From Dehalococcoidia bacterium (GTDB taxonomy: Bacteria > Chloroflexota > Dehalococcoidia > UBA2979), in assembly GCA_029941115.1 (NCBI GenBank), contig JAPYRK010000006.1:6821-70820 (forward strand): 64,000 bases of DNA, given 5' to 3'. The notes under the pieces are model-generated. The model saw only the letters and a list, made by a program, of their open reading frames with translations, had not been told where the DNA came from and searched no databases. Position 1 is the stretch's first letter. Each line of letters starts with the position of its first letter. The position numbers and the translations under genes are program-made. Below, piece after piece: positions 16,566 to 30,911 of this stretch.

Positions 16566-17927
16566 TTATTGGGCAGAGCGAAGAAATTCTGGCAAAAGAT
16601 GATCTGGATATCTGTCTCCTACATGACCTTGCTCGAGTAACTCTTTATATTCTAGGTCACTATAGCCAAGCAATTCCTTATATATCTCCTCACTATGCTC
16701 GCCGAGCCTTGGGGGAGGTGTACGCAGCGTGTTTGGTGTGTTGATCCATTTAGTCATTATTCCGGGATAGCGATAGTTTCCGATTACGGGCGAGTCTAGT
16801 TCTTCAAAAAAGCCGCGATCGATGAGCTGCGGTGAATTAAGGAGTTCAACGTCGTCAGTGACTGGACCAGCGCAAACTCCGGCTCGTTGCAGTTGCTCAA
16901 ATAGTTCGTACTTGTCAATATCGATTGTGTATTTTGTAAGCTCTTCGTGTAGGGCGTCACGATTCTTGAATCGTGATAACTGCGTTGTGAATTTTTCGTT
17001 TTCCTTTAGCAAGTCGGCATCGAGTACGTCGCACAGTGTCCGCCATTCGCTATCTTCTGACACGTCTATCGCAATCCACTGGTCCACACCGAGGGTAGGA
17101 AAGACTCCATGCGGAGCGTGGGAATGATGAGTATTTCCTTGTGGCCCTGCCACTCGTTGATTCATTTCGAAGTCAAGAATAAATTCGCCTAGATTGGGTA
17201 GAAATCCCTCCGCTAGTGGCATTTCTATCTGCTGACCTTGACCTGTTATGTCCCGAAAACGCAGCGCAGCAGTGATTACGGTAGCACCAAGTATGCCGGC
17301 AAAAGCATCTGCGGTGAATGCCTCCCCGGTCTGATCCGGAGTCCCGTCGGGATAGCCGCGTAGGTAGTGGTGGCCAATCATTGCTTCAACATGTGTACCA
17401 AATGCGCGATAACCTTTGTACGGGCCGGACAGGCCATATGCCGGCATTCGAAGCATAATGAGTCGTGGGTTTATTTCTTTTAGCGTATCGTAGGTGATAC
17501 CTGCTTTTTCTATAGTTGTGGGAACATTGTTTTCAACGAGCACATCGACTTCTTTTATAAGTTTTAGGAAAGCTTGTTTACCTTCACTCGTCATGATGTT
17601 GCATGCCATCGATTTCTTGTTTCGGCTATGTGAATTAAATCCAGGGTTCCTGTTCCAAGGTTCATCACCGGGGTCGAAGTCAGGATATGCACTTAGTGTG
17701 ATTCCATTATTCGCCATTTCAATGAGTTGCTCCCGAGGGGCAATGCGTTCAGCTCCTCTTGAATAGGGCTGAATTGCATCTACTGGTTCCACTCGAATAA
17801 CCTCTGCTCCCCATTCGGCGAGAACTTGAGTGCAGTGCGGGCCCGCCCAAACTACCGTGATCGCTGCAACTCTAACCCCATCTAATGGTAGATCAGGCCT
17901 AGTTGAAGTCTCTTGTTTAGTTGCCAT
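16566..17927 (-). CDS. CoA-transferase family III (CaiB/BaiF)
   Basis: N-terminal LDGVRV..ITVVWAGP, central conserved Asp region and the overall ~450 aa architecture. Confidence 0.85.
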   Translation of the reverse strand: MATKQETSTRPDLPLDGVRVAAITVVWAGPHCTQVLAEWGAEVIRVEPVDAIQPYSRGAERIAPREQLIEMANNGITLSAYPDFDPGDEPWNRNPGFNSHSRNKKSMACNIMTSEGKQAFLKLIKEVDVLVENNVPTTIEKAGITYDTLKEINPRLIMLRMPAYGLSGPYKGYRAFGTHVEAMIGHHYLRGYPDGTPDQTGEAFTADAFAGILGATVITAALRFRDITGQGQQIEMPLAEGFLPNLGEFILDFEMNQRVAGPQGNTHHSHAPHGVFPTLGVDQWIAIDVSEDSEWRTLCDVLDADLLKENEKFTTQLSRFKNRDALHEELTKYTIDIDKYELFEQLQRAGVCAGPVTDDVELLNSPQLIDRGFFEELDSPVIGNYRYPGIMTKWINTPNTLRTPPPRLGEHSEEIYKELLGYSDLEYKELLEQGHVGDRYPDHLLPEFLRSAQ

Positions 17928-17940
17928 AATTAGTTAACCC

Positions 17941-19149
17941 TTAAATCACTTTTGTCCGACGTAATTGAACTATGTCGGAATCGGTGTAACCCATATCCGA
18001 AAGAACGCTAACGGTATGCTCGCCTAGTAACGGAGCGCGTTTCATTTGTTTTCGAGTCGCGCCCGAAGTGACAAAATGGCGTCCAGGGTAGCGGATACTG
18101 CCTGTTTCAGGATGCTCGACTTCCTCCCAGACGTTTCTCTCTTGATAGTGTGGGTCATTGAGGAGATCTTCCACGGTCAGTATTGCTCCACCCAGAATTC
18201 CAATGGATTGCGTAGCTGCTACAGCTTCTCGTTTTGTCCGTTCGATTAGCCAAATGGCATATGACGCTTCCATTTCTTCAATGAATGTCGTCGACATTTG
18301 CATGAACGGTTTTTTTGCATCAGGTTGTTCCGCTAAATCTTCGCGACCAATAAGTCGCAGAAATTCAGGGACATGCTTGCTGGGTCCAGCCATTATATTG
18401 GCGTATCCGTCTTGTGCCGGACGTGGCCCAGAGGCAACTCTACCTAATGATCCACCGCGCTTATTGCTCCTCCCTGTATAGGATGCAGATGTGAGGCCGG
18501 GAGCTCTTCTGTCGCGAAATCCAGCTTGAGCCTCATAGACAGACTGATCAATATGATCACCGGATCCACCGCGCTCGACTCGTAAACGAGCTAGCACGCA
18601 CGCATATGTGAGCGACAATCCGGCATGATAATGTGCTAGATTTCCTCCAAGCTTGATGGGTTCCTTGGCTGGGTCACCATTCATATGCAGTGGACCGGCC
18701 ATTGCTTGAAGAACCAGCTCAGATCCTTTGAAATCTCTCCAAGGTCCAGTTTGTCCGAACGGAGTAAGCGATCCCAGTACTAGATCTGTTCGATTCGAAG
18801 TAAGTACCTTGTACCCCAAACCAAGTGACTCGAGGGTTCCGGGATTGAAATTTTCAATCACTATGTCATGGGAGTCGATCAGGGAGCGAATTATATCTTT
18901 TCCGTTCGGTTTAGCTAGATCACACGTGATCGATCGCTTGTTAGTGTTTAAATGCAAAAAAAGAGCTGAAGTTTCTTTGTTTGGAATGTCGTTTAGAAAA
19001 GGACCTTCTGCACGCGAAGGATCCCCGTCTGGTGGTTCAACCTTGAGGACATCGGCGCCGTAATCGGCGAAGAGCTTCCCTGAGTATGGAACACCAACCA
19101 TCGTACCCAGTTCGAGTACCCTTATGCCTTCAAATAGTTGCCTAGTCAT
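17941..19149 (-). CDS. CoA-transferase family III (CaiB/BaiF)
   Basis: FEGIRVLELGTMVGVPYSGKLFADYGADVLKVEPP is the canonical family III N-terminus. It lies adjacent to a paralogue. Confidence 0.85.
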   Translation of the reverse strand: MTRQLFEGIRVLELGTMVGVPYSGKLFADYGADVLKVEPPDGDPSRAEGPFLNDIPNKETSALFLHLNTNKRSITCDLAKPNGKDIIRSLIDSHDIVIENFNPGTLESLGLGYKVLTSNRTDLVLGSLTPFGQTGPWRDFKGSELVLQAMAGPLHMNGDPAKEPIKLGGNLAHYHAGLSLTYACVLARLRVERGGSGDHIDQSVYEAQAGFRDRRAPGLTSASYTGRSNKRGGSLGRVASGPRPAQDGYANIMAGPSKHVPEFLRLIGREDLAEQPDAKKPFMQMSTTFIEEMEASYAIWLIERTKREAVAATQSIGILGGAILTVEDLLNDPHYQERNVWEEVEHPETGSIRYPGRHFVTSGATRKQMKRAPLLGEHTVSVLSDMGYTDSDIVQLRRTKVI

Positions 19150-19189
19150 TTATCGAACCGTAAACCTTCATCACTTCACAAAGTGCACA

Positions 19190-20122
19190 TTAATAGCCCT
19201 TGAAGTCTGGAGCTCGCCGCTCAACAAATGAGCGAAAACCTTCTTTCGCATCACTCGTTTTTAGTAATCCCGCCTGAGCATTCCATTCATGTATCAGCCA
19301 TTGTTCCGCAGATCCTGATGTATCTAATGACGAATGCAAGAGGCGTCGAATCTCTGCTGCCGCGAGTGGTGGACCAGCCGCAACTCTCCGCGCATAGTCG
19401 ATGGCCTCTGATAGGAGGTCCTCGTCTTCAACAACCCTGTTTACTAGGCCAAGTTCAAGCAATTTATCATATGGCATTACATCACTGTGATACATAACTT
19501 CGAAAGCCCGAGCTGATCCGACTACTCGAGGAAGAAACCAGAGCACACCATAATCTGAGACGATTCCGCGTTTGAAAAAAATTGGTCCCATTCGCGCTGA
19601 TTTCCCCGCGATCCGAACGTCACACGCCATTGCCATGCCAAATCCAGCGCCTGCTGTCGCTCCGTTGATAGCACCGATTATCGGGACATCAGATTTAATG
19701 AAACTTAACGCTGTTGAGACTGATCTGTTGTGATGTGGCAGGCGTTCGTGTCGTGGAAGGCTGGGAACAGCGTCACTTGACTCTTGGCTTGAATCTGCCG
19801 GTGTACGATCAGGTGTGATTTCGGCTCCTGCACAGAAGGCACGACCACTCCCCGTTAGTACCATAGCTCTGACTGAATCTTCTTTTGAAGCGAACGCTAA
19901 TGCGGCTCCCAGACCTTGTCCAAGGGTTGCATTGAGCGAGTTCATTTGCTCAGGGCGGTTGAATGTCGTAACGAGCACTCCTTCATCATCGAGTTCCGCA
20001 ATAACGTCACCTTTTGAGATATCTTGGATACTGTCTATTATTTTGCTCATGAGCTCCCTCGTAAAGTGTCTTATAGTTGACCGGTCTTTATGTTGTGAGA
20101 GTGTAGCCTGTCTGGGCGGCAT
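19190..20122 (-). CDS. enoyl-CoA hydratase/isomerase (crotonase) family protein with low-complexity insertion
   Basis: AFCAGAEI ... GAINGATAGAGFGMAMACDVRIAG oxyanion-hole segments. An insert of about 45 aa rich in Ser/Pro lies between them. Confidence 0.8.
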   Translation of the reverse strand: MPPRQATLSQHKDRSTIRHFTRELMSKIIDSIQDISKGDVIAELDDEGVLVTTFNRPEQMNSLNATLGQGLGAALAFASKEDSVRAMVLTGSGRAFCAGAEITPDRTPADSSQESSDAVPSLPRHERLPHHNRSVSTALSFIKSDVPIIGAINGATAGAGFGMAMACDVRIAGKSARMGPIFFKRGIVSDYGVLWFLPRVVGSARAFEVMYHSDVMPYDKLLELGLVNRVVEDEDLLSEAIDYARRVAAGPPLAAAEIRRLLHSSLDTSGSAEQWLIHEWNAQAGLLKTSDAKEGFRSFVERRAPDFKGY

Positions 20123-20200
20123 CCGTGAGTGCCTGATGTTCTAAAGAATGGGAATAGTTGCTTTTTCTTATTTTTAAGGCCATGCTAGTCAATTATTGGA

Positions 20201-23200
20201 GTGATTATGAAACTTGGTAAATTACTTGTGGCTAATCGAGGTGAAATAGCAGTTCGAATTATTCGAGCTGCTTCTGAGCTGGATATAGAGACTTGCTCGA
20301 TATATTCTGAGGCAGACATTAATTCAATCCATTGGCGAAGAGCCGATGAGGCATTCTTACTTCAGGGCTCGGGTGCTCAGCCGTATTTAGACATAGAGCA
20401 AATCGTACAGGTGGCTACTGATGCTGGATGTGCCGCGGTCCATCCGGGTTATGGCTTTCTTAGCGAAAATCCTGAGTTTGCTATCAAGTGTGAATCCGCT
20501 GGGATAAAGTTTGTCGGTCCAGAATCTTCCTCACTAAACGTTTTTGGTGACAAAGTATTGGCGAGACAAGTCGCGATGCAGCACGGAATACCGGTTGTAC
20601 CTGGACTTGACCATCCGGTAACGGTCACTGAGGCAATGGAATTTCTGGGATCTTTGGAAGAGGGTCAGTCAGCGATTCTCAAGGCTGTGCATGGCGGAGG
20701 TGGGCGTGGAGTTCGTGTACTCGAAAAGGATAGTGATGTTGGACAGGCGTACCGAGAGGCACAGACTGAGGCTGAATCGTCCTTTGGGAGTGCAGATCTC
20801 TACATCGAAAGATACCTACCCAATGTTCGCCATATTGAAGTGCAAATAGCCGGTGACTCAACTGGCGCGATCTCACATTTTTGGGAGCGCGATTGTTCCA
20901 TACAGAGGCGTCACCAGAAAATTATTGAGATAGCTCCTGCCCCGTTTTTGGATGAAGCCGTTAGGGATGCATTACTGGCGGCGGCGGTAACAATCGGAGA
21001 GGCCGCAAATTACGAAAATCTAGGCACCGTGGAGTTTTTGGTATCGGCAAGCCAGACAGAATCGAGCGAATTCTTTTTCATTGAGGTAAATCCAAGACTG
21101 CAGGTAGAACACACAGTAACTGAAGAAGTCACAGGTATTGATTTGGTACAAACACAATTGCGAATTGCTTCAGGTGAGAGTCTTGCATCACTTGGTCTTT
21201 TACAGGGATCGATTGCGCCAGCCCAAGGTTACGCGATTCAGGCAAGAGTAAATATGGAGAAAATCAAGGAAGACGCCACCGTGGTTCCGTCAACGGGAAC
21301 TCTATCAGTGTTCGCTCCGCCATCAGGTCTTGGTGTACGGACGGACACTTTTGGTTACAGCGGTTACCAGACTAGTACAAGTTTCGATTCACTTCTGGCA
21401 AAAGTAATTGGGTATTCCAGTTCTCGTGAATTTGCTCCTGCGGTCGCACGGGTTGAAAATGCGCTGGCCGAGTTTGATGTCAAAGGTGTGGATACCAATA
21501 TATCTTTCTTGAGAGCCATTCTTGGTCATCAATCGTTTCGGAATGGAGAAGTGTACACACGTTTTGTTGATTCAGAGGCCGGTGGACTCAACCAGCTTGC
21601 CAAAGAAATAGGCGACAGTGTTTTATTGGGCTTTGCCGAACCGAACGAACAGGCTGGGGCGACGATCGATTCTAACGACCCTTTGGCGGTACTAGATTAT
21701 GGAATACAAGCGATTCGGAGTGCGGAGACACAGTCTTCTCCAGAGCTAGGTGGACAATCCGATGCCCCTGGATCAGTAAGGTCACCTCTGCAGGGTACTG
21801 TCGTATCTATTGAAGTCTCGGTTGGCGAGAAAGTACAAGCCGGACAACTACTAGCGGTAATGGAATCAATGAAAATGCAGCATGAGATTAAAGCTCATTT
21901 AAGTGGTTCGGTCAGTGTTATTAGTGTTAGTTCAGGCGACACTCTTTGGGAGAATCACACGCTGATGATCATCGAAGCACATGAAGTCTCTGGGTCTGTT
22001 ATTGAAGGTGACAATTCAGTCGATTTAGAGTTCATTCGTCCTGATCTCGAGGAAATTTTGGTACGCCGTGCCGCGACCCTGGATGAGAATCGAGAAGAGG
22101 CGGTGTCCAAGCGCCATTCTCGGAATCTGAGGACAGTTCAGGAGAATGTAGAGGATTTGTTCGATACAGGAACTTTTTTGGAGTACGGACCTCTAGTTCT
22201 AGCAAACCAGTTCTCGCGTCGTAGCTTGAATGAATTAATTGAAAAGACACCAAGAGACGGGATGATTACCGGTATGGGGAGTGTGAACGGAGATCTGTTT
22301 TCTGGTCCTGAAAGTATGGTCGCAACAATTGCATATGATTATATGGTTTTGGCCGGTACGCAAGGGAACAGAAATCATCAAAAAACCGATCGAATGATTG
22401 AAGTAGCACGAAACTCACAACTACCCTTGGTATTGTTTGCAGAAGGCGGTGGCGGTCGGCCCGGAGACGATGGGCTTCATGCAGCTGGAGGTAGCTCAAC
22501 GTTTGCTTCTTTTTCAACCCTAAGTGGCCTGGTCCCTATGGTCGGAATTACGGCAGGCCGTTGTTTTGCCGGCAATGCTTCATTACTTGCTTGTTGTGAC
22601 GTAATTATCGCCACGGAAGGATCAAATATTGGGATGGGAGGACCGGCAATGATCGAAGGTGGTGGCCTAGGTATTTTTGCTCCTGAAGATATTGGTCCGA
22701 TGGAAATACAGATACCCAACGGCGTCGTAGATATATCGGTTAAAGACGAAGCAGAAGCCGTTCAAGTTACTAAGAAATACCTGTCTTACTTCCAGGGGTC
22801 AGTGGATACATGGGAGGCTCCTGATCAGCGTGAAATGAGGCAGATTGTCCCTGAAAATAGATTGCGAGTCTATAACGTTCGAGACGTGATTAATACGCTG
22901 GCTGACGTTGACTCCATACTTGAGATTCGGCCTGAGTTTGGAATTGGAATTGTCACTGTATTGGTCCGTGTGGAGGGCAGGAGTTTGGGTGTTATTGCTA
23001 ACAATCCTGGTCATTTGGGCGGTGCTATTGACTCAGATGGTGCTGACAAAGCCGCTCGGTTTATGCAGCTTTGTGACGCGTTCGATCTGCCGTTGCTCAC
23101 TCTAGTTGACACCCCTGGCATCATGGTTGGCCCTGAGGTGGAAAAAACCGCTTTAGTGCGTCACGCTAATCGGCTATTTCTGCATGGCGCCAATATTGAA

Positions 23201-23584
23201 ACGACTTTCATGTCAATTATTTTACGAAAGGCATATGGACTGGGCGCAATAGCCATGACAGGCGGTAATTATCGCCAACCACAGTTCACCGTGTCTTGGC
23301 CGACGGGGGAGTTTGGCGGAATGGGCCTGGAGGGTTCAGTGAAGCTTGGGTATCGTGATGAACTTGCGTCCATTGCGGACCCAGAAGAGCGATTAGAAAA
23401 ATATGAAGCGATGGTGGCTCGGGCATATGAGCGTGGTAAAGCTTTGAATACGGGAATGAACTTCGGTTTTGATGACACGATTGATCCCGCGGAATCGAGG
23501 GCGTGGATTGCGGGAACGCTTAAGGCAGCAAAATTACCTCCAATAAGATCTGGAAAAAAACGTCCGTTTATCGATGCCTGGTAG
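20201..23584 (+). CDS. single-chain multidomain acyl-CoA carboxylase (biotin carboxylase - BCCP - carboxyltransferase fusion, LCC-type)
   Basis: An N-terminal ATP-grasp biotin carboxylase (GYGFLSEN, EVNPRLQVEH), a biotinyl domain with the SMKM biotinylation motif (about residue 545), and a C-terminal AccD/PccB-like carboxyltransferase, all in one 1127 aa ORF. Confidence 0.85.
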   Translation: MIMKLGKLLVANRGEIAVRIIRAASELDIETCSIYSEADINSIHWRRADEAFLLQGSGAQPYLDIEQIVQVATDAGCAAVHPGYGFLSENPEFAIKCESAGIKFVGPESSSLNVFGDKVLARQVAMQHGIPVVPGLDHPVTVTEAMEFLGSLEEGQSAILKAVHGGGGRGVRVLEKDSDVGQAYREAQTEAESSFGSADLYIERYLPNVRHIEVQIAGDSTGAISHFWERDCSIQRRHQKIIEIAPAPFLDEAVRDALLAAAVTIGEAANYENLGTVEFLVSASQTESSEFFFIEVNPRLQVEHTVTEEVTGIDLVQTQLRIASGESLASLGLLQGSIAPAQGYAIQARVNMEKIKEDATVVPSTGTLSVFAPPSGLGVRTDTFGYSGYQTSTSFDSLLAKVIGYSSSREFAPAVARVENALAEFDVKGVDTNISFLRAILGHQSFRNGEVYTRFVDSEAGGLNQLAKEIGDSVLLGFAEPNEQAGATIDSNDPLAVLDYGIQAIRSAETQSSPELGGQSDAPGSVRSPLQGTVVSIEVSVGEKVQAGQLLAVMESMKMQHEIKAHLSGSVSVISVSSGDTLWENHTLMIIEAHEVSGSVIEGDNSVDLEFIRPDLEEILVRRAATLDENREEAVSKRHSRNLRTVQENVEDLFDTGTFLEYGPLVLANQFSRRSLNELIEKTPRDGMITGMGSVNGDLFSGPESMVATIAYDYMVLAGTQGNRNHQKTDRMIEVARNSQLPLVLFAEGGGGRPGDDGLHAAGGSSTFASFSTLSGLVPMVGITAGRCFAGNASLLACCDVIIATEGSNIGMGGPAMIEGGGLGIFAPEDIGPMEIQIPNGVVDISVKDEAEAVQVTKKYLSYFQGSVDTWEAPDQREMRQIVPENRLRVYNVRDVINTLADVDSILEIRPEFGIGIVTVLVRVEGRSLGVIANNPGHLGGAIDSDGADKAARFMQLCDAFDLPLLTLVDTPGIMVGPEVEKTALVRHANRLFLHGANIETTFMSIILRKAYGLGAIAMTGGNYRQPQFTVSWPTGEFGGMGLEGSVKLGYRDELASIADPEERLEKYEAMVARAYERGKALNTGMNFGFDDTIDPAESRAWIAGTLKAAKLPPIRSGKKRPFIDAW

Positions 23585-23592: not shown

Positions 23593-24252
23593 TCAGCTCA
23601 GCCTTAAATCCAAAGGTGATGCAGCTTTTCGTTTTAGAGCGGAAACGAGATCGATAACCGTTTTGATCTCGGTCGAAAATATGGTTGCTGCTCTTCCGAC
23701 CGCCTGAACTGAATGAGCATCTGACCCTCCGACCGCGACCACACCTAATTCCTTAGCTAGTCTCACATAGTAGCCATCATCACTGTCGGAATGATCGCCG
23801 TTGACCGCTTCGATACCCGTGAACCAATTTTGTATTTCTTCACTAGAGGGTCTGCGTAGAGTTCCTGTTGAACGCATGGGATGTGCGACGATTAAAGCTG
23901 CACCTTCTTCTTCGGCACTCTTAATTAAGTGATCTATCATTAATAATTGGGGACGATATCGAGAGAAACCGTAGGCAAGAATATGCCCGAAGTTAGTTCC
24001 TAACTCGATAGCCGGAAGGACATTGATCTGGAAAATTTCACTGAGTCGCTTTGTGTCTTCCTCGGGCCAAAGTGCATTGTGTTCGGTCAGGCAAATTCCA
24101 TCTAGTCCTCGAGCAGCCGCTTGGCCTACGAGTTTCTCGACGCTCACTCCACTATCGAGTGATTTGTCTGAACTATGGGCATGCATCTCAAAGACAGAAC
24201 CACCCTCGGGCCGATATTGTCTCGGGAATTCCAGTCGGATATCTAAGCTCAC
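23593..24252 (-). CDS. PHP domain (histidinol-phosphatase-like) metal-dependent phosphoesterase
   Basis: MHAHSSDKS, LTEHNA and AHPMR are the His motifs of the PHP fold; 219 aa. Confidence 0.7.
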   Translation of the reverse strand: MSLDIRLEFPRQYRPEGGSVFEMHAHSSDKSLDSGVSVEKLVGQAAARGLDGICLTEHNALWPEEDTKRLSEIFQINVLPAIELGTNFGHILAYGFSRYRPQLLMIDHLIKSAEEEGAALIVAHPMRSTGTLRRPSSEEIQNWFTGIEAVNGDHSDSDDGYYVRLAKELGVVAVGGSDAHSVQAVGRAATIFSTEIKTVIDLVSALKRKAASPLDLRLS

Positions 24253-24298: not shown

Positions 24299-25270
24299 CT
24301 AGCGTAGAAGCTCAATGAGTTCAGGCAATACAGCTAGGCAATCATCGATGATACCTACATCGGCATATTTAAAAATTGGAGCATCTGGATCAGAATTAAT
24401 TGCCACAATTAGACGGGCATTGGAGCATCCCGCCATGTGTTGACTAGCTCCCGAAATGCCTGCCGCAACATAGAGTGCGGGAGCAACAGTGGTGCCGGTT
24501 AGTCCGATTTGTTCTGTGGGTGGTGCCCAGTATTCGTCAACGATCGCTCGAGAGGCTCCGGGCATCCCCTTTAATAGGTTTGCCAATTCTCTCACAAGTG
24601 CAAAATTTTCAGCGTTTTGTAAACCTCGACCACCAGACACAACTATCTCCGCATTTTCAAGACGAGGTCCTTCATCAGCTGTTGCCTCAGTGATGACCCG
24701 CACCCTGTCCGCCAAGAGTTCAAGATTGAGTTCTACTATGTCTGAGGAGTTTTCCGGGTGAGGCGTCGGGGCTTCAGCTGCAGCTGGTCGCAAACCAACG
24801 ACTACAGGCGAAGTAGAATCGATTTGGTAGAGTGCTCTGGCAGCACCTCCATACACGGCTGCCTCAATTTCGGTATATTGCTCGTTTATTGTTTCAATCC
24901 TTGTCACGTTCATTACACAGGTACCGTCTATCCGTCTCGACAATCTAGGGATAAATTCAAGTGTTGATGGATGTCTGCCGATGAGCACTATGCGTGCCCC
25001 TGAGCTGGAAACAATGTGAGCAGCAGCCGAAACCATATTGTCCCCCGAAAAGCGAGCGAGCAACGAATCTTCGATTGTGTAGACCTTTGTCGCACCAAGC
25101 TCAGTAACTTCTGCGGTTGCGGACGAGTTATCTGCACCGATGAGCCCGCATTCCACTGGGCGTCCGGTATTTTCTGACAAATTCTGAGCGAAACCTAAGG
25201 CTTCGCGAGCGCCTATATTGATTTGTGAAGTCTCATCAATATGTGCCAGCACAAGAATGGGATCAGACAT
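24299..25270 (-). CDS. etfA: electron transfer flavoprotein subunit alpha
   Basis: The FAD-binding C-terminal domain (GISGASQHMAG, AINSDPDAPIF) and its position downstream of etfB. Confidence 0.9.
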   Translation of the reverse strand: MSDPILVLAHIDETSQINIGAREALGFAQNLSENTGRPVECGLIGADNSSATAEVTELGATKVYTIEDSLLARFSGDNMVSAAAHIVSSSGARIVLIGRHPSTLEFIPRLSRRIDGTCVMNVTRIETINEQYTEIEAAVYGGAARALYQIDSTSPVVVGLRPAAAEAPTPHPENSSDIVELNLELLADRVRVITEATADEGPRLENAEIVVSGGRGLQNAENFALVRELANLLKGMPGASRAIVDEYWAPPTEQIGLTGTTVAPALYVAAGISGASQHMAGCSNARLIVAINSDPDAPIFKYADVGIIDDCLAVLPELIELLR

Positions 25271-26078
25271 TTAAGTCACCTCGTTCTCTAAGGATCTGCA
25301 GTAAATGTTTCGCCTTTTCCTTCGGGTCAACACCTTCAATTATTTCGCAGTTTCCCTGCACTTCTGGAACCGTTAAGAGTTTGATGCTCATTTTTTCAGT
25401 AGCTGGACCTGGCAGCAGTTCGTCGGCTCGAAAAACGGTAGGGGGATTACGACGGGACTGAATCATGCGCCGGCTACTTGGATACCGTGGCTGCCCAATC
25501 TCATTACTAACAGCTACTACCGCTGGCAGATTGCATGCCAGTGTTTCCGGCCCGTTTGGAGTCACAACGTCAACATGCAATGATTGTGTTTGTTCGTCAA
25601 AATTTATCTGAGACGCCATGGTGATGAACGGCATTCCGAGATCCTCAGACAAGATCGCCGGGACGGCACCTTGGTCGTAGTCAGAACCCTGCCGACCGCA
25701 CAAAATTAGATCGACATCTCCTAGATTCTTGGCGACAGTGGCAAGTATCTGAGAAATTCGAAACGGATTACCTGATTGTTTTTCGTCATCATGCACGTGA
25801 ATGGTATTTTCAGCTCCCATTGCGTAGCATCGCTTTAGTACATCGGGGGCCGTATCTGAACCAACCGTGACTGCTGTCACACGAGTACCCTCTTGGACCT
25901 CAGCAATCTGTAAGGCAGCCTCCATCGCCTGTTCGTCATAGGCATTAATAATTTGTGGCACGGTCGCTCCAGTATTAAACCCTAGCCCGTCTTCACTAAC
26001 TTCTAAACGCCCCCATAACGCATAACTGTTAATACCGTCAGGATCCAACACTTGCTTTGCTGCCACAAGAATATGCAT
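25263..26078 (-). CDS. etfB: electron transfer flavoprotein subunit beta
   Basis: MHILVAAKQVLD start and the AMP-binding fold. It overlaps etfA by 8 nt, the usual operon arrangement. Confidence 0.9.
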   Translation of the reverse strand: MHILVAAKQVLDPDGINSYALWGRLEVSEDGLGFNTGATVPQIINAYDEQAMEAALQIAEVQEGTRVTAVTVGSDTAPDVLKRCYAMGAENTIHVHDDEKQSGNPFRISQILATVAKNLGDVDLILCGRQGSDYDQGAVPAILSEDLGMPFITMASQINFDEQTQSLHVDVVTPNGPETLACNLPAVVAVSNEIGQPRYPSSRRMIQSRRNPPTVFRADELLPGPATEKMSIKLLTVPEVQGNCEIIEGVDPKEKAKHLLQILRERGDLNV

Positions 26079-26102: not shown

Positions 26103-26384
26103 TTAGTCAAAAGAATAGACGTAGGATTCCTCACACCAAACGAATTCATCCTTAAAATCATCTGGTTTGACTGACAACTGACCTATTTCTAACCAGTACC
26201 ACGGGGGATCCCCCTGAACAATTTTTCGTCCAGTTAAAACTCCCTCGAAGGCAGCACGTGACGCAAAATTGGTGTTCCCAACTTGGGCGCCACCATCCGC
26301 CTCGACGCGTCTACCAACGAGTTCGGAATCGAGCGTGATCTGCATCGATCCCTTTGGTTGCCCCGACTCTATCTTTTCACTCAT
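26103..26384 (-). CDS. hypothetical protein (93 aa) between the NMO and etfB genes
   Basis: The ORF is in operon context but has no recognisable motif. Confidence 0.3.
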   Translation of the reverse strand: MSEKIESGQPKGSMQITLDSELVGRRVEADGGAQVGNTNFASRAAFEGVLTGRKIVQGDPPWYWLEIGQLSVKPDDFKDEFVWCEESYVYSFD

Positions 26385-26404: not shown

Positions 26405-27523
26405 TTACGCTGTAGCTGAGTTTTCAGTGGCACGCTCGAAGAGCTCAAGCGCTTCGTCGGCCATTTCATACACGACCTCGGCCGCGGGTTTGATTGCATC
26501 AATGCCAACGATTGCCTGACCAGCTGGTGTAGTCATCCAATCTTCGAGATTCGCTTCCTTAATGTCGCGGAGTACATCGTTGACGAGCATACCTTGAAGT
26601 GGCATAGGGAGAGTATCGGGGGCCCCGTCCTCTTTCCAAATATCCGACCATCTTGAACGGAGCTGTCGTATTGGTTTTCCGGACATAGCACGCGACTGTA
26701 CGGCGTCTTCAACCTTGGAGTCTATTATTCGTTGTTTTAGGAACATGGCGGTTTCTGATTCATGGGTAGCGAGCCAGATGGTACCGGTCCAAACCCCTGC
26801 TGATCCCATCGCGATCGAGGCTGCGAGATGCTTGCCACTCGATACCCCGCCTGCAGTTAGAACTAACGTATCCGTACCTTCGGCCATTCTCACGATTTCC
26901 GGCACGAGAGTAAAGGTGCCTACCGTTCCACTATGTCCACCAGAGTCATAGCCCTGAGCTACTACAACGTCGACGCCTGCTTCGATCTGTCTACGGGCTT
27001 GTCGCGGAAGTCCTACGAGTCCCCAGACCTTCATTCCCTCTTGATGAGCCCGTTCAATAATGAACGCGGGGCTGCCTAGCCCGGACGCGAATATAGGTAC
27101 TTTTTCCTCAAATAATATATCGAGCTGCTGGCGTGATCGCTCTAGTAGATTTTCGTAACCAGAGTAAGTAGGGTCAATATCACTTGGTGGAGGAGAATCA
27201 GGAGCACCAGAAACGGACTTAACGTGCTGCACAAATGTTCGATGTTCGTCTGGGATCATTTCGTCTAGATCTTCGCGATTTCCCTCAACAAATGAGGCTG
27301 GGACTAGCAAATCCACACCGAAGGGCTTATCACCAATTTTGTCCCGGATCCAGCGGATATCGGACCGTAGTTCATCTGGTTTAAGTCCGGTTGCACCAAG
27401 TATTCCGATCCCGCCTGCGTTCGAAACAGCGGCGATTACGTCTTTAGTATGAGCAAATGCGACCACCGGAATTTCACATCCATATTCTTCGCAAAGCTTT
27501 GTGTTTAGCGGGTTTCCATCCAT
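26405..27523 (-). CDS. nitronate monooxygenase / 2-nitropropane dioxygenase family (FMN-dependent, FabK-like)
   Basis: GGIGILGA FMN-binding motif, TIM-barrel pattern, 372 aa. Confidence 0.8.
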   Translation of the reverse strand: MDGNPLNTKLCEEYGCEIPVVAFAHTKDVIAAVSNAGGIGILGATGLKPDELRSDIRWIRDKIGDKPFGVDLLVPASFVEGNREDLDEMIPDEHRTFVQHVKSVSGAPDSPPPSDIDPTYSGYENLLERSRQQLDILFEEKVPIFASGLGSPAFIIERAHQEGMKVWGLVGLPRQARRQIEAGVDVVVAQGYDSGGHSGTVGTFTLVPEIVRMAEGTDTLVLTAGGVSSGKHLAASIAMGSAGVWTGTIWLATHESETAMFLKQRIIDSKVEDAVQSRAMSGKPIRQLRSRWSDIWKEDGAPDTLPMPLQGMLVNDVLRDIKEANLEDWMTTPAGQAIVGIDAIKPAAEVVYEMADEALELFERATENSATA

Positions 27524-27558: not shown

Positions 27559-28365
27559 CTAAACCAGTACTGCTGGTGTTAGGGCGAACTCTTCAATCAT
27601 TTCATCTGCGTATGCTATTCGACCTGACAGCTTGCCACCTTCATCATGTACTAGTCTGAGGCAGGCTTCAGCCATGTTTTCGACCGGCACTACTCGATCT
27701 TTATTTGATTCATTCACCAATCCATGGTGCAGAACTCCAGGAGTTGCGACGAGGCCTGGTGAGATCGCATTTACTCTGATATTTTGATCGGCGACTTCAG
27801 ATGCAAGACCGGTAGACAGCCTTTCTAGTGCTGCTTTACACATTCCGTAAACGGTACCGCCGGATGCTGGCCCCCCAACTTCTGGATGTAGAGCTGCGTG
27901 GGACGAAATATTAAGTATCCAACCACTTCCCGTTTCACGCATATTTTCCATAGCGAGTTGAGCCAGATGCAGTGGGCCGTGGACCTGCACCTCAAACATG
28001 AGTTTTTGACGTTTTTCTGGAAATTCTGAGATAGGTATGAAGTAAGTTACGGCCGCATTGTTGACTACAATATCAACGCTTCCAAAAAGCGCCTTCGTGG
28101 TCTCAATAAGCTGCACTCGATCTTCGGCCAGTGCCATATCGCATCTAACTGCGGCCGCTTCACCGCCCGCATCATTAATCCGCTTCACGACGGAATTCAT
28201 GCTTCCGGCTAAGATATGATCTCCGTCATCAACGGTTCGTGCCGAGACGACCACTTTAGCGCCTTCCATTGCGTATCGAATAGCAATTGCTTCTCCAATA
28301 CCGCGTGATGCCCCAGTGATAATTGCGACCTTGCCGGCCAATAATCCATTTTTGTTAATTGACAT
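27559..28365 (-). CDS. SDR family oxidoreductase
   Basis: ITGASRGIGEAIA and NNAA; 268 aa. Confidence 0.85.
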   Translation of the reverse strand: MSINKNGLLAGKVAIITGASRGIGEAIAIRYAMEGAKVVVSARTVDDGDHILAGSMNSVVKRINDAGGEAAAVRCDMALAEDRVQLIETTKALFGSVDIVVNNAAVTYFIPISEFPEKRQKLMFEVQVHGPLHLAQLAMENMRETGSGWILNISSHAALHPEVGGPASGGTVYGMCKAALERLSTGLASEVADQNIRVNAISPGLVATPGVLHHGLVNESNKDRVVPVENMAEACLRLVHDEGGKLSGRIAYADEMIEEFALTPAVLV

Positions 28366-28413
28366 CTATACCCCCGTATTTCTGTTTGCTCAGCTTAGCG
28401 CATTTCTACTAAA

Positions 28414-29661
28414 TCAGATGATTCCATTACTTCGAAACGCTATTACTTTTCTTTCGTCATATCCTAATAGATCGATTAATATTTCATCATTATCAGCGCC
28501 GGTACTTGGTGTTGGGCCAGTTATTTCACCCTGTCCTTTTTCAAGTTTCCATATCACTCCTCGATAGAGCGAATCAAGAGAGAAATTGTTGTCGGTCACG
28601 GTGAGACTAGTTCGGTGCAGACTATTGAGATTCTCATCATTGACTAGATCCAGTGTCCCCATGACCGGGTATGCTGGAATTTTTGACTTTTGGAGAGTTT
28701 TTGTTAGTTGCATAGCTGTGTAATCCTTGGTCCATGATTCAATGGTCTCGTCTAATTCATCTTGATTATCGAGTCGACCCTGTAACGTCTTGAACTTAGG
28801 GTTTGTTATATCCTCTGATTTTTGCGCTGCCAGATCTTTAAACGTCTCCCATTCTTCTTGATTTCGAACTGAGATCGATATCCATTCATCGAGCCCTGAT
28901 GTTTTGTAGTAACCGTGTGGTGCTGTCGCTGGGTATCTATTGCCTTGCGGACCTGCAACTCGGCCGTTTAAAAAGTAATCCATCAATGGTTCAGCTATTC
29001 GTTGAATGCAGGCTTCTCCTTGGGCTATATCAATGTGTTGGCCTCGCCCGGTCGTGTCCCGAGATTCAAGCGCCGCAAGTATCGCAAAAAACGCATGACC
29101 TGCCGCGGTAGGATCCAAATCCGCTTGGTCTTCTTGAGGATGGTCAGAATCGTGGTACCCAAGGACACTCTTTATTCCATAGAGCGCTGCCAGGGAGGGA
29201 CCGTAGGTGACGAGATCTCTCCACGGGCCATCGGTTGCTCCTGTAGCTGAAAGCGAGGCCAATATTATCTTCGGATTAATTCTCGTAAGAACATCAAAAC
29301 CGAGACCCAACGAAGGCATTACTCGGGCTGAAAAGTTTTCGACTACTACGTCGCTGACTGCGATGAGTTTTTTATATATTTCTTTGCCATCTTCTGACTG
29401 TAGATCCAGACTTAAGCTTTTCTTACCTCGATCGAATGCGTGATATGCCATTGGGTCAGAGATATCGACTGCATCCCGAGTGGCTGTGCCGGCCATTCCT
29501 TTGCCTGCCATTGACACTCCTGATCCACCCGTGGGGGATTGTATTTTTATAACTTCCGCGCCCATATCTTTAAAACTCATTCCCAGAAGCGGTCCAGCCC
29601 AGACGTGGCCGTGATCTATTACTCGTATTCCGCTGAGCGGACCATTGGTTGTTGCAGTCAT
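28414..29661 (-). CDS. CoA-transferase family III (CaiB/BaiF)
   Basis: Family III N-terminus (GIRVIDHGHVWAGP); 415 aa. Its start overlaps the stop of the upstream paralogue as TAATG. Confidence 0.85.
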   Translation of the reverse strand: MTATTNGPLSGIRVIDHGHVWAGPLLGMSFKDMGAEVIKIQSPTGGSGVSMAGKGMAGTATRDAVDISDPMAYHAFDRGKKSLSLDLQSEDGKEIYKKLIAVSDVVVENFSARVMPSLGLGFDVLTRINPKIILASLSATGATDGPWRDLVTYGPSLAALYGIKSVLGYHDSDHPQEDQADLDPTAAGHAFFAILAALESRDTTGRGQHIDIAQGEACIQRIAEPLMDYFLNGRVAGPQGNRYPATAPHGYYKTSGLDEWISISVRNQEEWETFKDLAAQKSEDITNPKFKTLQGRLDNQDELDETIESWTKDYTAMQLTKTLQKSKIPAYPVMGTLDLVNDENLNSLHRTSLTVTDNNFSLDSLYRGVIWKLEKGQGEITGPTPSTGADNDEILIDLLGYDERKVIAFRSNGII

Positions 29662-30911
29662 TAGGTAATTCCTAGCTTTGTAAGATTGGATCTCTCAGAA
29701 GTCGTAAGTCCTAATCTAGTTTTGAAGAATTCCTCGTTATGTTCCCCAAGCTGTGGTGCAGGACGGTAAACGGCCCACGGTGTTTCTGAAAATAGATATG
29801 GTGCGCCAGGTATTTTATAACTGCCTACAACCGGATGTTCTATCTCATGCCAAAAGCCTCTGACAGCCAAATGTTCACTTTCAATTATTTCATTAACCTT
29901 GTTGACTGGTTGAAAAGGAATTCTATTTTCCGAGAACAACTTGAATAATTCTGATCGAGTCTTACCTTTCATCCAAGGATGCCAAAACGCATCTAATTCC
30001 TTATGCCACTCAAAAGACAACCATCTATCAGAGAGCCTAGGATCATCGGCCCAGTCTGGATTATCCATAAGATTGATAAATCGTTTCCATTGTTCATCTA
30101 CCATCGTTATTACCTCCACAAAGCCATCAGAGGCTGGAGTGACCTGCCACGGATAAAATCCACTTCGATGTGTACCGTCTCTTGAACCGAGTACCCCCTG
30201 GAAGACAAATCCTGGAACGCCTGAGCCTCCCAAATAACTGGCCATAACTTCTACTACAGATATCCACGCATGCAATCCTTGGTTAAGTTGTCTTTTCTTA
30301 CGCAGTGCTAATAGAGCCGCAATGGCGCCATGAATACCTCCCTGAAAATCAGCCGCACAGTAAGGCAGCCAAAGAGGAACTTTATCCGGACTTCCAATTT
30401 TCTTAGAGGCACCTGAAGCGGCTGTAGCCGTTAGTGCTGTACCAGCCCAGTCTCTATAGGGTGTGTCGTAACCAAATATTGTGATGGATGACATGACGAG
30501 CATGTCATTGTTCTCGGATAGCGATTCGTAACTCAAACGTTCATTCGTGAGCTCTTCCAAAGAGAGATTACTGATTACCAAATCTACATCTGCTGCAGCC
30601 GAAATTAATAGATCCTGCCCGACTTGAGTAGCCAAGTCAAGAGTTACACTCTTCTTGTTAGTATTGAGGAATAGGTGTAACCCACTCTTTTCTATATGTG
30701 GAATGTCTTTTGGAAAAGGGCCATGGCTACGGAGCGAATCACCGATTATAGGTTTTTCTATCTTGATAACTTCAGCGCCTAGATCAGCCAATAATTTTCC
30801 AGCGTAGGCCACAGAGATGAAGTCACCGATCTCGAGCACTCGCAAATTCTTTAGTGGTCCGTGTATGTCCATAACTAGATCCTGTGCCGGAATCATAGTG
30901 AACACTGTCAA
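29661..30911 (-). CDS. CoA-transferase family III (CaiB/BaiF)
   Basis: Family III architecture; 416 aa. Confidence 0.85.
   Translation of the reverse strand: MTVFTMIPAQDLVMDIHGPLKNLRVLEIGDFISVAYAGKLLADLGAEVIKIEKPIIGDSLRSHGPFPKDIPHIEKSGLHLFLNTNKKSVTLDLATQVGQDLLISAAADVDLVISNLSLEELTNERLSYESLSENNDMLVMSSITIFGYDTPYRDWAGTALTATAASGASKKIGSPDKVPLWLPYCAADFQGGIHGAIAALLALRKKRQLNQGLHAWISVVEVMASYLGGSGVPGFVFQGVLGSRDGTHRSGFYPWQVTPASDGFVEVITMVDEQWKRFINLMDNPDWADDPRLSDRWLSFEWHKELDAFWHPWMKGKTRSELFKLFSENRIPFQPVNKVNEIIESEHLAVRGFWHEIEHPVVGSYKIPGAPYLFSETPWAVYRPAPQLGEHNEEFFKTRLGLTTSERSNLTKLGIT

What the first reader, a model, noticed from the sequence alone, without database searches (positions are those of the whole stretch)
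16566..30911. Fourteen-kb catabolic block: two tandem CoA-transferase pairs bracketing an EtfAB without acyl-CoA dehydrogenase but with NMO, SDR, ECH and PHP
On the minus strand, CoA-T, CoA-T (TAATG-coupled), SDR, NMO, a 93 aa unknown, etfB, etfA and PHP form a probable operon. Further along, another CoA-T pair and a crotonase follow. ETF normally partners an acyl-CoA dehydrogenase, and none is present. The adjacent FMN-dependent nitronate-monooxygenase/FabK-like enzyme or the small unknown protein could be the ETF client. If so, this would be an unusual pairing. Tandem family-III CoA-transferases suggest CoA shuttling between two related acids.
Basis: inference. Interest (0 to 1): 0.55.

Follow-up and report, generated by a model that had tools for sequence, protein, structure and literature searches.

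The report
ETF cassette with FabK-like partner
A marine Dehalococcoidia bacterium encodes its electron-transfer flavoprotein in a fixed four-gene cassette that often sits beside a FabK-like flavoenzyme rather than the usual acyl-CoA dehydrogenase, which hints at, but does not prove, a new kind of electron donor for this carrier.

Summary
The TAATG overlap is real, and the 64-kb window has no acyl-CoA dehydrogenase. That gene splits the "block" into three transcription units.

Comparison with about 70 related loci, all but two weak matches from Chloroflexota/Dehalococcoidia or unlabelled metagenome contigs, shows a fixed cassette: 93-aa protein, EtfB, EtfA, PHP hydrolase. Every ETF of this clade that I sampled is encoded this way. 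A highly conserved FabK/NMO-family FMN enzyme lies directly upstream in about 30 of 46 divergent copies. The small protein also follows NMO paralogs that have no ETF nearby. In other genomes the cassette stands alone among housekeeping genes, so it may also be the lineage's general ETF.

The small protein is a rare family with no Pfam match, modelled as an SH3-like barrel. The tandem CoA-transferases are the two subunits of one heteromeric BbsEF-type enzyme and are fused into one chain in relatives. They are not two enzymes shuttling CoA.

Best reading (about 0.45): a Bbs-like modified β-oxidation in which the FabK-like enzyme is the acyl-CoA dehydrogenase and feeds ETF. Verdict: partly supported; a new variant of a known kind.

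The parts
29661..30911 (-). Family-III CoA-transferase, A-type subunit (CoAT_A). The start is TTG at 30911 or ATG at 30896.
   Evidence: PF02515, 267 bits. It is 54% identical to the N-terminal half of the fused 807-aa protein in L075. Among its best PDB matches is 9fn0_A (9e-37). The catalytic-Asp position holds Asp.
28414..29661 (-). Family-III CoA-transferase, B-type subunit (CoAT_B), overlapping CoAT_A as TAATG.
   Evidence: PF02515, 269 bits. The overlap was read directly. It is 52% identical to the C-terminal half of the fused L075 protein.
27559..28365 (-). Short-chain dehydrogenase/reductase, putatively a 3-hydroxyacyl-CoA dehydrogenase.
   Evidence: adh_short, 145 bits. No NCBIfam model reaches its cutoff. 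The substrate is inferred only.
26405..27523 (-). FabK/NMO-family FMN TIM-barrel oxidoreductase (372 aa), the proposed acyl-CoA dehydrogenase and ETF client.
   Evidence: PF03060, 155 bits. The FabK equivalog model scores 162 bits against a cutoff of 453. Best PDB sequence matches are FabK structures at 5e-42. The AF2 model has pLDDT 89 and its nearest folds are FabK TM0800 and 5gvj. It is 60-78% identical across Dehalococcoidia. It lies directly upstream of the small protein in about 30 of 46 divergent loci.
26103..26384 (-). 93-aa protein of a rare, unnamed family (called 'small93' here). It is modelled as an SH3-like β-barrel and is proposed to be an accessory or docking subunit.
25263..26078 (-). 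ETF β subunit of non-bifurcating sequence type, with a non-canonical recognition loop.
   Evidence: PF01012. Best PDB match is 5ow0_B, the Geobacter metallireducens ETF. Its motif is GRQGSDYDQGAVP, against DGDTAQVG in CarD, the A. fermentans EtfB and LctB. The loop PRYPSSRRM has Ser where P. denitrificans has Leu, and this holds across the clade.
24299..25270 (-). ETF α subunit, overlapping etfB by 8 nt.
   Evidence: PF00766 and PF01012. PDB matches include 5ol2_A at 5e-44. The closest homologs are all Chloroflexota at 54% identity or less outside the window's own lineage.
23593..24252 (-). PHP-family metal-dependent hydrolase, the constant last gene of the ETF cassette. Its substrate is unknown.
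   Evidence: PHP_C and PHP hits. The HxHS, LTEHN, GH, AHPMR, NGD and GSDAHS motifs, which I read as the PHP metal-ligand motifs, are invariant or near-invariant in 16 cassette homologs. There is no informative PDB relative by sequence.
20207..23584 (+). Single-chain biotin-dependent acyl-CoA carboxylase (BC-BCCP-CT), LCC type, convergent with the ETF operon.
   Evidence: Pfam domains. PDB 4rcn, long-chain acyl-CoA carboxylase, E = 0, 1017 bits. It is syntenic in close relatives, and a 50-55% identical homolog lies near the cassette in L020/L060.
20051..20206 (.). A 156-nt divergent intergenic region between the carboxylase and the crotonase operon.
   Evidence: Read directly from the sequence. 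It contains one promoter-like hit, not above background.
19190..20050 (-). Crotonase-family enoyl-CoA hydratase/isomerase (286 aa from the ATG at 20050).
   Evidence: ECH_1, 165 bits. Generic NCBIfam hits fall below their cutoffs.
17941..19149 (-). Family-III CoA-transferase, A-type subunit (CoAT_C), which lacks the catalytic Asp.
   Evidence: PF02515. PDB 9fn0_A scores 6e-48 against 9fn0_B at 6e-23. It has His where 4ed9 has the conserved Asp, and 9fn0_A has Tyr at the same position.
16566..17927 (-). Family-III CoA-transferase, B-type subunit (CoAT_D).
   Evidence: PF02515. Best PDB match is 9fn0_B at 2.4e-50, against 9fn0_A at 2.9e-21. It matches the C-terminal halves of the fused proteins.
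15729..16544 (-). TauE/SafE-family membrane permease, 21 nt downstream of CoAT_D and probably in the same operon.
   Evidence: PF01925. It is syntenic in L011, L013 and L014.
14404..15717 (-). M24 Xaa-Pro aminopeptidase-like gene, 11 nt downstream of TauE. It may be co-transcribed; its functional link to the block is doubtful.
   Evidence: Peptidase_M24 and AMP_N hits.

Best explanation
The region encodes a CoA-dependent, modified β-oxidation module of the benzylsuccinate (Bbs) type in a marine Dehalococcoidia bacterium with SAR202-like gene content.

Proposed steps:
1. A heteromeric family-III CoA-transferase (CoAT_A plus CoAT_B; a second one is CoAT_C plus CoAT_D) activates a carboxylic acid at the expense of another acyl-CoA.
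2. The FabK/NMO-family FMN enzyme works in the direction opposite to FabK, as IpdC and FabX do, and introduces the α,β double bond.
3. Its electrons go to the non-bifurcating ETF encoded two genes downstream.
4. The 93-aa SH3-like protein, translated between the two, serves as an accessory or docking subunit.
5. The crotonase hydrates and the SDR oxidises the product.
6. The LCC-type carboxylase handles a branched intermediate or a product.

The ETF cassette (small protein, EtfB, EtfA, PHP) is the standard way this lineage encodes its ETF. It probably also serves other dehydrogenases.

Shown: the gene identities, the cassette, its frequent linkage to the NMO gene, the heteromeric nature of the CoA-transferases, and the non-bifurcating sequence type.

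Inferred: the direction of electron flow, NMO as an ETF client, the role of the small protein, and the substrate.
For: - Conserved order. NMO, small93 and EtfB are adjacent in 29-30 of about 46 divergent small93 copies, where ETF is about 50% identical, from species-level genome representatives and metagenomes. NMO-centred samples L079 and L080 add two more.
- NMO-small93 adjacency survives rearrangements of the ETF and PHP genes (L019, L021, L066).
- Small93 also follows NMO paralogs without ETF, at gaps as small as 8 nt (L009 twice, L065).
- The sequence subtype of small93 tracks NMO adjacency. The EADGG type always has NMO upstream; the C(T/I)CEGG type never does.
- NMO homologs are repeatedly next to, or overlap, CoA-transferase genes (L009, L010 with a 4-nt overlap, L075/L078, L080). 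This argues for a CoA-thioester substrate.
- There is precedent for NMO-family acyl-thioester dehydrogenases: IpdC is predicted to run the reverse of the FabK reaction (PMC5380842), and FabX does so (PMC8626469).
- The ETF lacks the bifurcating EtfB motif and most resembles the Bbs-associated Geobacter ETF.
- Its recognition loop lacks the hydrophobic anchor across the clade. This fits a non-ACAD docking mode; that reading is an inference.
- The CoA-transferases match BbsEF subunits. The Bbs pathway logic is CoA-T, then dehydrogenase to ETF, then hydratase, then SDR (PMC10818641).
- No ACAD occurs in the window or in any locus of its own lineage.
Against: - The cassette without NMO is common: about 16 of 46 divergent small93 copies, and 4 of 5 ETF-centred samples. 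In L077 it lies among housekeeping genes. The ETF is therefore not dedicated to the NMO and may mainly serve ACADs elsewhere.
- Three close NMO homologs (63-73% identical) have no ETF nearby.
- ACADs lie within 10 kb in several relatives and share the operon in L080.
- The nearest characterised relatives of the NMO are NAD(P)H-dependent reductases (FabK). Nothing tested here shows that it cannot use NAD(P)H.
- No thiolase is present in the window.
- No interaction, expression or activity data exist.
- The small protein has no cofactor motif and no informative structural relative.
Confidence: 0.45

Rival explanations
1. The cassette (small protein, EtfB, EtfA, PHP) is simply the general, housekeeping ETF of these Dehalococcoidia and serves ordinary ACADs encoded elsewhere. 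On this view the NMO/FabK-like enzyme is an independent NAD(P)H-linked oxidoreductase of the CoA-ester pathway, and its position next to the ETF genes is operon history rather than electron transfer between them.
For: - The stand-alone cassette has unrelated or housekeeping neighbours in L028-L040, L073, L074, L076 and L077.
- ACADs lie nearby in L073, L076, L039 and L080.
- It is established knowledge that ETF genes are often unlinked from ACAD genes.
- The NMO's closest solved relatives are NAD(P)H-dependent FabK enzymes.
Against: - It does not explain why the small cassette protein is duplicated behind NMO paralogs that have no ETF (L009, L065).
- It does not explain why NMO-small93 adjacency persists through rearrangements.
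- It does not explain why small93 subtypes track the presence of NMO.
- The ETF recognition loop lacks the anchor residue used for ACAD docking in the canonical system.
Confidence: 0.3
2. Electron flow runs the other way. The ETF donates electrons to the FabK-like enzyme, which reduces an enoyl-CoA. This would be a reductive step in a catabolic or detoxifying route, analogous to ETF-dependent enoyl-CoA reductases such as CarC or Bcd.
For: FabK-family enzymes characterised structurally are enoyl reductases. ETF-coupled enoyl-CoA reduction is known in the CarCDE and Bcd-Etf complexes, which appear among the PDB matches.
Against: - Known ETF-driven reductases use bifurcating group-2 ETFs. This EtfB lacks their DGDTAQVG motif.
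- The surrounding gene set (CoA-transferases, crotonase, SDR, carboxylase, many monooxygenases) is oxidative and catabolic, as proposed for SAR202 (PMC5395668).
- No NADH-oxidising partner for the ETF is encoded nearby.
Confidence: 0.1
3. The NMO gene encodes a true nitronate monooxygenase or a PA1024-like NADH:quinone reductase, unrelated to CoA esters. It would detoxify nitronates or rebalance NADH for the pathway's SDR.
For: Pfam places it in the NMO family. Nitronate monooxygenases and PA1024 appear among the sequence and fold matches. A SAR202 transcript study labels such genes nitronate monooxygenase (ncd2) (PMC9416657).
Against: - Sequence similarity to FabK (5e-42) far exceeds that to characterised NMOs (6e-19) or PA1024 (1e-12).
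- It is repeatedly coupled to CoA-transferase genes, in one case by a 4-nt overlap with a CoA-transferase gene.
- An O2- or quinone-dependent enzyme would not explain the linkage to small93 and ETF.
Confidence: 0.07

Closest known systems
Benzylsuccinate β-oxidation (Bbs) system with its ETF: BbsEF CoA-transferase, BbsG acyl-CoA dehydrogenase to ETF, BbsH hydratase, BbsCD SDR, BbsAB thiolase
   Same: - The CoA-transferases are two-subunit family-III enzymes. CoAT_C matches 9fn0_A and CoAT_D matches 9fn0_B, and one subunit lacks the catalytic Asp, as 9fn0_A does.
- A crotonase, an SDR and a non-bifurcating ETF are present. The EtfB's best solved relative is the G. metallireducens ETF 5ow0. That this ETF is the Bbs-associated one rests on my own knowledge.
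- The pathway logic is as described in PMC10818641.
   Different: - There is no BbsG-type ACAD; a FabK/NMO-family FMN enzyme sits in its place.
- There is no BbsAB thiolase in the window.
- An LCC-type carboxylase, a PHP hydrolase and the 93-aa protein are added.
- The host appears to be an aerobic marine Chloroflexota, and the substrate is unknown.
IpdC (steroid ring C/D catabolism, Mycobacterium/Rhodococcus) and FabX (Helicobacter pylori): NMO-family acyl-thioester dehydrogenases
   Same: They are FMN TIM-barrel enzymes of the NMO/FabK family, proposed or shown to desaturate an acyl thioester, the reverse of the FabK reaction (PMC5380842; PMC8626469). IpdC also sits among CoA-transferase-like, crotonase and SDR genes; that point rests on my own knowledge.
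   Different: - No ETF or small accessory protein is reported as a partner for either enzyme. For FabX no acceptor other than O2 has been found, and it carries a [4Fe-4S] cluster. The window protein has only two Cys.
- FabX is a distant fold match (15% identity).
- No IpdC sequence was available for comparison.
FabK (enoyl-ACP reductase II)
   Same: It is the closest solved relative by sequence (5e-42) and by fold (TM-score normalised to target length (TMt) 0.85-0.88, 27-29% identity). The GGH motif, where I place the catalytic His, is invariant across the family alignment.
   Different: - It scores 162 bits against a cutoff of 453 for the FabK equivalog model.
- It is about 55 residues longer, with a low-confidence insert at about residues 105-125.
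- Its genomic context is CoA-transferases and ETF, not fatty-acid synthesis genes.
Canonical ACAD-ETF system (for example MCAD:ETF, Paracoccus ETF)
   Same: It is a heterodimeric EtfAB with the FAD-binding α C-terminal domain. The sequence type is non-bifurcating.
   Different: - No ACAD is in the window.
- The recognition loop has Ser, Gly or Ala at the Leu anchor position across the clade.
- The ETF genes are flanked 5' by the small protein in nearly every locus and by a PHP hydrolase gene 3' of etfA in nearly every locus with enough flank.
Single-chain long-chain acyl-CoA carboxylase (LCC, PDB 4rcn)
   Same: BC, BCCP and CT lie in one chain of about 1100 aa. The match is E = 0 over its length.
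   Different: The substrate is not known here. It lies between two CoA-ester operons.

Membership tests
Electron-transfer flavoprotein (EtfAB) | Adjacent β and α subunit genes. β carries the ETF domain (PF01012). α carries the ETF domain plus the C-terminal FAD-binding domain (PF00766). | tested here: met
   EtfB scores 93 bits on PF01012. EtfA scores 110 bits on PF00766 and 63 bits on PF01012. The genes overlap by 8 nt.
Bifurcating (group 2) ETF | An EtfB segment of the form GRQAIDGDTAQVG, associated with the second FAD, as seen in CarD, the A. fermentans EtfB and LctB. | tested here: not met
   The window has GRQGSDYDQGAVP. The whole clade has GRQ(G/S/A)SD(Y/F)DQG. That this motif defines the group rests on my own knowledge plus the aligned solved examples.
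Canonical group-1 ETF (ACAD partner) | A recognition loop PRYA(S/T)LPNIM with a Leu anchor that docks into the ACAD. | tested here: not met
   The loop is PRYPSSRRMI, with Ser at the Leu position in the alignment to 1efp_B. That position is Ser, Gly or Ala across 52 clade members.
Canonical group-1 ETF (ACAD partner) | AMP bound in EtfB as a structural cofactor. | not testable with these tools
   No ligand modelling was available.
NMO/FabK flavoenzyme family (PF03060) | An FMN-binding TIM barrel that matches PF03060 above its gathering score, with a conserved GGH motif. | tested here: met
   155 bits against a cutoff of 28. DSGGHSG is invariant in 40 homologs. The AF2 model has pLDDT 89 and its nearest folds are FabK and NMO structures. 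That the His of this motif is the catalytic residue rests on my own knowledge.
FabK enoyl-ACP reductase (equivalog TIGR03151) | A score above the curated equivalog cutoff. | tested here: not met
   162 bits against a cutoff of 453.
Nitronate monooxygenase (enzyme activity) | Oxidation of propionate-3-nitronate or alkyl nitronates with O2. | not testable with these tools
   Only sequence data are available. Similarity to characterised NMOs (6e-19) is much weaker than to FabK.
Acyl-CoA dehydrogenase (ACAD) as ETF partner in the locus | A gene with the Acyl-CoA_dh_N/M/1 domains in or next to the block. | tested here: not met
   There is no Pfam hit in any scanned ORF of 250 aa or more. tblastn of two ACADs against the window gave a best E of 0.16. 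None occurs in the 17 loci of the same lineage.
Family-III CoA-transferase (CaiB/BaiF) | A full-length PF02515 match. | tested here: met
   All four proteins score 267-298 bits over profile positions 1-366.
Heteromeric BbsEF-type CoA-transferase | Two different family-III subunits encoded in tandem, each corresponding to a different Bbs subunit. | tested here: met
   CoAT_C matches 9fn0_A at 6e-48 against 9fn0_B at 6e-23. CoAT_D matches 9fn0_B at 2e-50 against 9fn0_A at 3e-21. For the first pair the split is weaker against 9fn0. However, A and B are 54% and 52% identical to the N- and C-terminal halves of a fused homolog.
Heteromeric BbsEF-type CoA-transferase | Physical heteromer formation and the CoA donor and acceptor specificity. 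| not testable with these tools
   Only gene fusion (Rosetta-stone) evidence is available.
Bbs-type modified β-oxidation operon | The complete set: CoA-transferase, ACAD (BbsG), hydratase, SDR and thiolase (BbsAB). | tested here: not met
   A CoA-transferase, a crotonase and an SDR are present. No ACAD and no thiolase domain was found in the window. It works like this system but is not a member.
Single-chain LCC-type acyl-CoA carboxylase | BC, BCCP and CT domains in one polypeptide, homologous over its length to 4rcn. | tested here: met
   The Pfam domain order is as required. 4rcn_A matches at E = 0 and 1017 bits.
PHP-domain metal-dependent hydrolase | PHP and PHP_C domains with the His/Asp/Glu metal ligands. 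| tested here: met
   PHP_C scores 48 bits and PHP 33 bits. The motifs I read as the PHP metal ligands are invariant or near-invariant in 16 homologs. The substrate was not tested.
Any described family for the 93-aa protein | A match to Pfam, NCBIfam or a solved structure. | tested here: not met

The most novel reading that the evidence does not exclude
The 93-aa SH3-like protein is a new adaptor subunit. It docks FabK/NMO-family FMN enzymes, acting as acyl-CoA dehydrogenases, onto a Chloroflexota-specific ETF whose recognition loop has lost the ACAD anchor. That would define a new class of ETF client and a three-component dehydrogenase-adaptor-ETF system. The always-linked PHP hydrolase would have an as yet unknown role in the function or maintenance of this system.
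Probability: 0.3. Interest if true: 0.7.

Novelty: new variant of a known kind. Interest (0 to 1): 0.5.

Why it matters
ETF is textbook-linked to acyl-CoA dehydrogenases and a few amine or sarcosine-type dehydrogenases. A FabK/NMO-family TIM-barrel enzyme feeding ETF would be a new client class. It would also explain how the last unknown electron acceptor of IpdC-type steroid and alicyclic ring dehydrogenases might work.

The lineage is SAR202-like Dehalococcoidia, which are abundant in the dark ocean and are proposed to oxidise recalcitrant dissolved organic matter through CoA esters (PMC5395668). A conserved, lineage-wide ETF cassette is a concrete handle on where those electrons go. The cassette carries an undescribed small protein and a PHP hydrolase.

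The result also corrects how the expanded CaiB/BaiF genes should be counted. Tandem pairs and 800-aa fusions are single heteromeric enzymes, so the number of distinct CoA-transferases is roughly half the gene count for such pairs.

Tried and rejected
1. An Fe-S cluster in or between the small protein and the NMO. Rejected: no Cys position is conserved across the family. The first Cys is Ala in all NMO-linked copies, and the VWCEE Cys is Val in several. The NMO has only two Cys.
2. Natural fusions of the small protein to NMO or ETF, which could have been modelled. None were found. The long hits P0072, P0138 and P0157 are mis-called starts or repeats.
4. The first search of genome contigs with the 32-sequence alignment failed for lack of a conserved stretch. 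It worked with 10 closer sequences.
5. All-against-all clustering of stop-to-stop ORFs was swamped by spurious overlapping ORFs in high-GC relatives. I replaced it with targeted blastp maps and Pfam-annotated look-ups.
6. The promoter/terminator scan and the Rfam search gave nothing informative for operon limits.
7. Counting ETF, ACAD and ETF-QO genes per complete genome, to decide between a general and a dedicated ETF, was not possible.
8. The paper on the Geobacter ETF structure (PMC6779460) is not held. Statements about that protein beyond the alignment rest on my own knowledge.
9. Literature searches found no paper linking ETF with NMO/FabK enzymes or with PHP proteins. Absence from this library is not proof of novelty.
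10. The weak Pseudomonas-type matches to the small protein (L042, L072; 30% identity, E 2e-4 and 5e-5) were treated as probably spurious.

Full report
**What is in the sequence**

On the minus strand these are:
- two family-III CoA-transferases (29661-30911 and 28414-29661);
- an SDR (27559-28365);
- an NMO/FabK-family FMN enzyme (26405-27523);
- a 93-aa ORF with no family (26103-26384);
- EtfB (25263-26078) and EtfA (24299-25270);
- a PHP-domain protein (23593-24252);
- further on, a crotonase (19190-20050) and two more CoA-transferases (17941-19149 and 16566-17927).

The first CoA-transferase pair overlaps as TAATG. All spacers from 30911 to 23593 are 48 nt or less.

It encodes biotin carboxylase, BCCP and carboxyltransferase in one chain and matches the single-chain long-chain acyl-CoA carboxylase 4rcn at E = 0. 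It is convergent with the PHP gene and divergent from the crotonase across 156 nt.

The "14-kb block" is therefore three transcription units. The third unit probably continues into a TauE permease and an M24 peptidase. None of the block's proteins reaches an NCBIfam curated cutoff. Consensus promoter and terminator hits are at background. Rfam finds only a tRNA elsewhere in the window.

**Is an ACAD really absent?**

Yes, within the window. No ORF of 250 aa or more that I scanned has ACAD domains. tblastn with two Dehalococcoidia ACADs gives nothing better than E = 0.16.

The window otherwise carries seven family-III CoA-transferases, five luciferase-like monooxygenases, aldo-keto reductases and SDRs. 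This is the paralog expansion described for SAR202 (PMC5395668). Identical NMO proteins occur in marine Chloroflexota/Dehalococcoidia MAGs with the same gene order.

**The small protein and the cassette**

The 93-aa protein has only close relatives in the word-indexed search. An exhaustive profile search of 1.8 billion representatives found 39 proteins, 23 of them at E of 1e-10 or better, nearly all 70-115 aa. They share the motifs LTGR, GDPPWRW and VWCEE.

I then searched species-level genomes and metagenome contigs with this family. That gave 32 and 30 loci. Apart from two weak matches, the genome loci are all labelled Chloroflexota/Dehalococcoidia; the metagenome contigs carry no taxon labels. 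I mapped the window's proteins onto them.

Three results stand out:
- **Own lineage.** In the window's own lineage (17 loci) the block is syntenic as far as each contig extends: the carboxylase is found in 8 and the crotonase in 9, and no locus has an ACAD.
- **A constant cassette.** Among 48 divergent copies (37-59% identical), the order small protein, EtfB, EtfA, PHP is almost constant. Five ETF-centred look-ups and two NMO-centred ones that reached an ETF all showed it, with the small ORF confirmed by tblastn.
- **NMO upstream in most.** The NMO gene lies directly upstream in 29-30 copies, is absent in 16, and is undetermined at contig ends in 2.

NMO-small adjacency survives rearrangement of the ETF and PHP genes (L019, L021, L066). 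It also occurs without any ETF nearby (L009 twice, at gaps as small as 8 nt; L065).

The small protein's sequence subtype tracks this pattern. The EADGG type is always NMO-linked, and the C(T/I)CEGG type never is.

**What argues for caution**

The NMO-less cassette is frequent. It can sit among housekeeping genes; in L077 these are L28, FakA, DegV and RecG. In other genomes unrelated genes flank it.

Three close NMO homologs have no ETF nearby.

ACADs lie within 10 kb in some relatives. In L080 an ACAD, a fused CoA-transferase, NMO, the small protein, EtfBA and PHP are all on one strand.

The cassette therefore looks like the standard ETF locus of this lineage. The NMO enzyme is a frequent client or neighbour, not its exclusive one. 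I could not count ETF genes per genome with the tools left.

**Properties of the parts**

- **ETF.** EtfB's best solved relative is the G. metallireducens ETF 5ow0. Where the bifurcating ETFs CarD, A. fermentans EtfB and LctB have GRQAIDGDTAQVG, the window has GRQGSDYDQGAVP. This version is conserved across the clade. The recognition loop reads PRYPSSRRMI. It has Ser where P. denitrificans has the Leu anchor, and Ser, Gly or Ala across the clade. The significance of that Leu for ACAD docking is from my own knowledge of the MCAD:ETF complex.
- **NMO.** It is far closer to FabK (5e-42) than to characterised nitronate monooxygenases (6e-19) or PA1024 (1e-12). It models confidently (pLDDT 89), with FabK as the nearest fold. 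It is unusually conserved: 95-99% identical in relatives whose CoA-transferases are 66-67% identical.
- **Small protein.** It models as an all-β barrel (pLDDT 83). It resembles only generic SH3/Tudor/Sm folds and has no conserved Cys set.
- **PHP protein.** The motifs I read as the PHP metal ligands are invariant or nearly so. It has no informative solved relative by sequence.

**The CoA-transferases**

Relatives carry 800-aa proteins with two CoA_transf_3 domains next to NMO genes. Their N-terminal halves match CoAT_A (54% in L075) and CoAT_C. Their C-terminal halves match CoAT_B (52%) and CoAT_D.

CoAT_C and CoAT_D match, reciprocally, the two different chains of benzylsuccinate CoA-transferase 9fn0. 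CoAT_C has His, and 9fn0_A has Tyr, at the catalytic-Asp position.

Each tandem pair is therefore one heteromeric enzyme.

**Mechanism proposed**

The gene set parallels the Bbs pathway: CoA-transferase, then dehydrogenase to ETF, then hydratase, then SDR (PMC10818641). A FabK-like enzyme sits where the ACAD would be.

NMO-family enzymes that desaturate acyl thioesters are known or predicted: IpdC (PMC5380842) and FabX (PMC8626469).

I therefore favour (0.45) an NMO-type acyl-CoA dehydrogenase that reduces a non-bifurcating ETF, with the small protein as an accessory or docking subunit. The rivals are:
- a general ETF with an unrelated NAD(P)H-linked NMO enzyme (0.30);
- reverse electron flow into an enoyl-CoA reductase (0.10);
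- a true nitronate monooxygenase or NADH:quinone reductase (0.07).

The substrate, the direction of electron flow, the role of the small protein and the role of PHP are inferences or unknown.

**Novelty**

Literature searches found no description of an ETF linked to NMO/FabK enzymes, to a PHP hydrolase, or to this small protein.

The components belong to known families. The cassette and the proposed client are a new variant, worth a direct biochemical test. They are not yet evidence for a new system.

Noticed in passing
window 20207-23584 (+): A single-chain BC-BCCP-CT acyl-CoA carboxylase of the LCC type (PDB 4rcn, E = 0) lies between the two CoA-ester operons. A homolog about 50-55% identical also lies near the cassette in L020/L060.
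   Followed up: partly
window 17941-19149 (-): CoAT_C has His where family-III CoA-transferases carry the catalytic Asp. The matching subunit of benzylsuccinate CoA-transferase (9fn0_A) has Tyr at that position. This suggests one catalytic and one non-catalytic subunit per heteromer.
   Followed up: partly
window 26405-27523 versus L012, L013, L016, L047, L048: The NMO/FabK-like protein is 95-97% identical in relatives whose neighbouring genes are much more diverged (CoA-transferases 66-67%, EtfA 78-80%, SDR 84%). Either constraint is unusually strong or the gene was exchanged recently.
   Followed up: no
window 58927-63787: A third cluster holds three more family-III CoA-transferases and an aldo-keto reductase on alternating strands. 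In total the window has 7 CoA_transf_3 genes and 5 luciferase-like monooxygenase genes in 64 kb, which is a SAR202-type paralog expansion.
   Followed up: partly
L033:10001-11047; L063: The small protein can be followed directly by the PHP gene with no ETF genes nearby. The small protein and PHP may therefore have a link of their own.
   Followed up: no
L080:2169-9879: In one relative an ACAD, a fused 818-aa double CoA-transferase, NMO, the small protein, EtfB, EtfA and PHP are all on one strand. This is the only sampled case where an ACAD shares the operon with the cassette.
   Followed up: partly
L079:7150-7507: The small-protein homolog between NMO and EtfB matches as two separate pieces and was not called as a gene. 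It may carry a frameshift or an insertion in that assembly.
   Followed up: no
window 31031-31366 (-): This AhpC/TSA-like ORF of 111 aa matches only profile positions 46-121. It is either N-terminally truncated or has a mis-set start. It lies just upstream of the 8-gene operon.
   Followed up: no
window 10853-14407 (+): A 1184-aa class II (B12-dependent) ribonucleotide reductase with a TSCPD domain. Its barrel domain matches in two stretches, which suggests an insertion. It is convergent with the M24 peptidase gene, overlapping it by 4 nt.
   Followed up: no
window 8405-8476 (+): One tRNA gene, the only Rfam match in the window.
   Followed up: no
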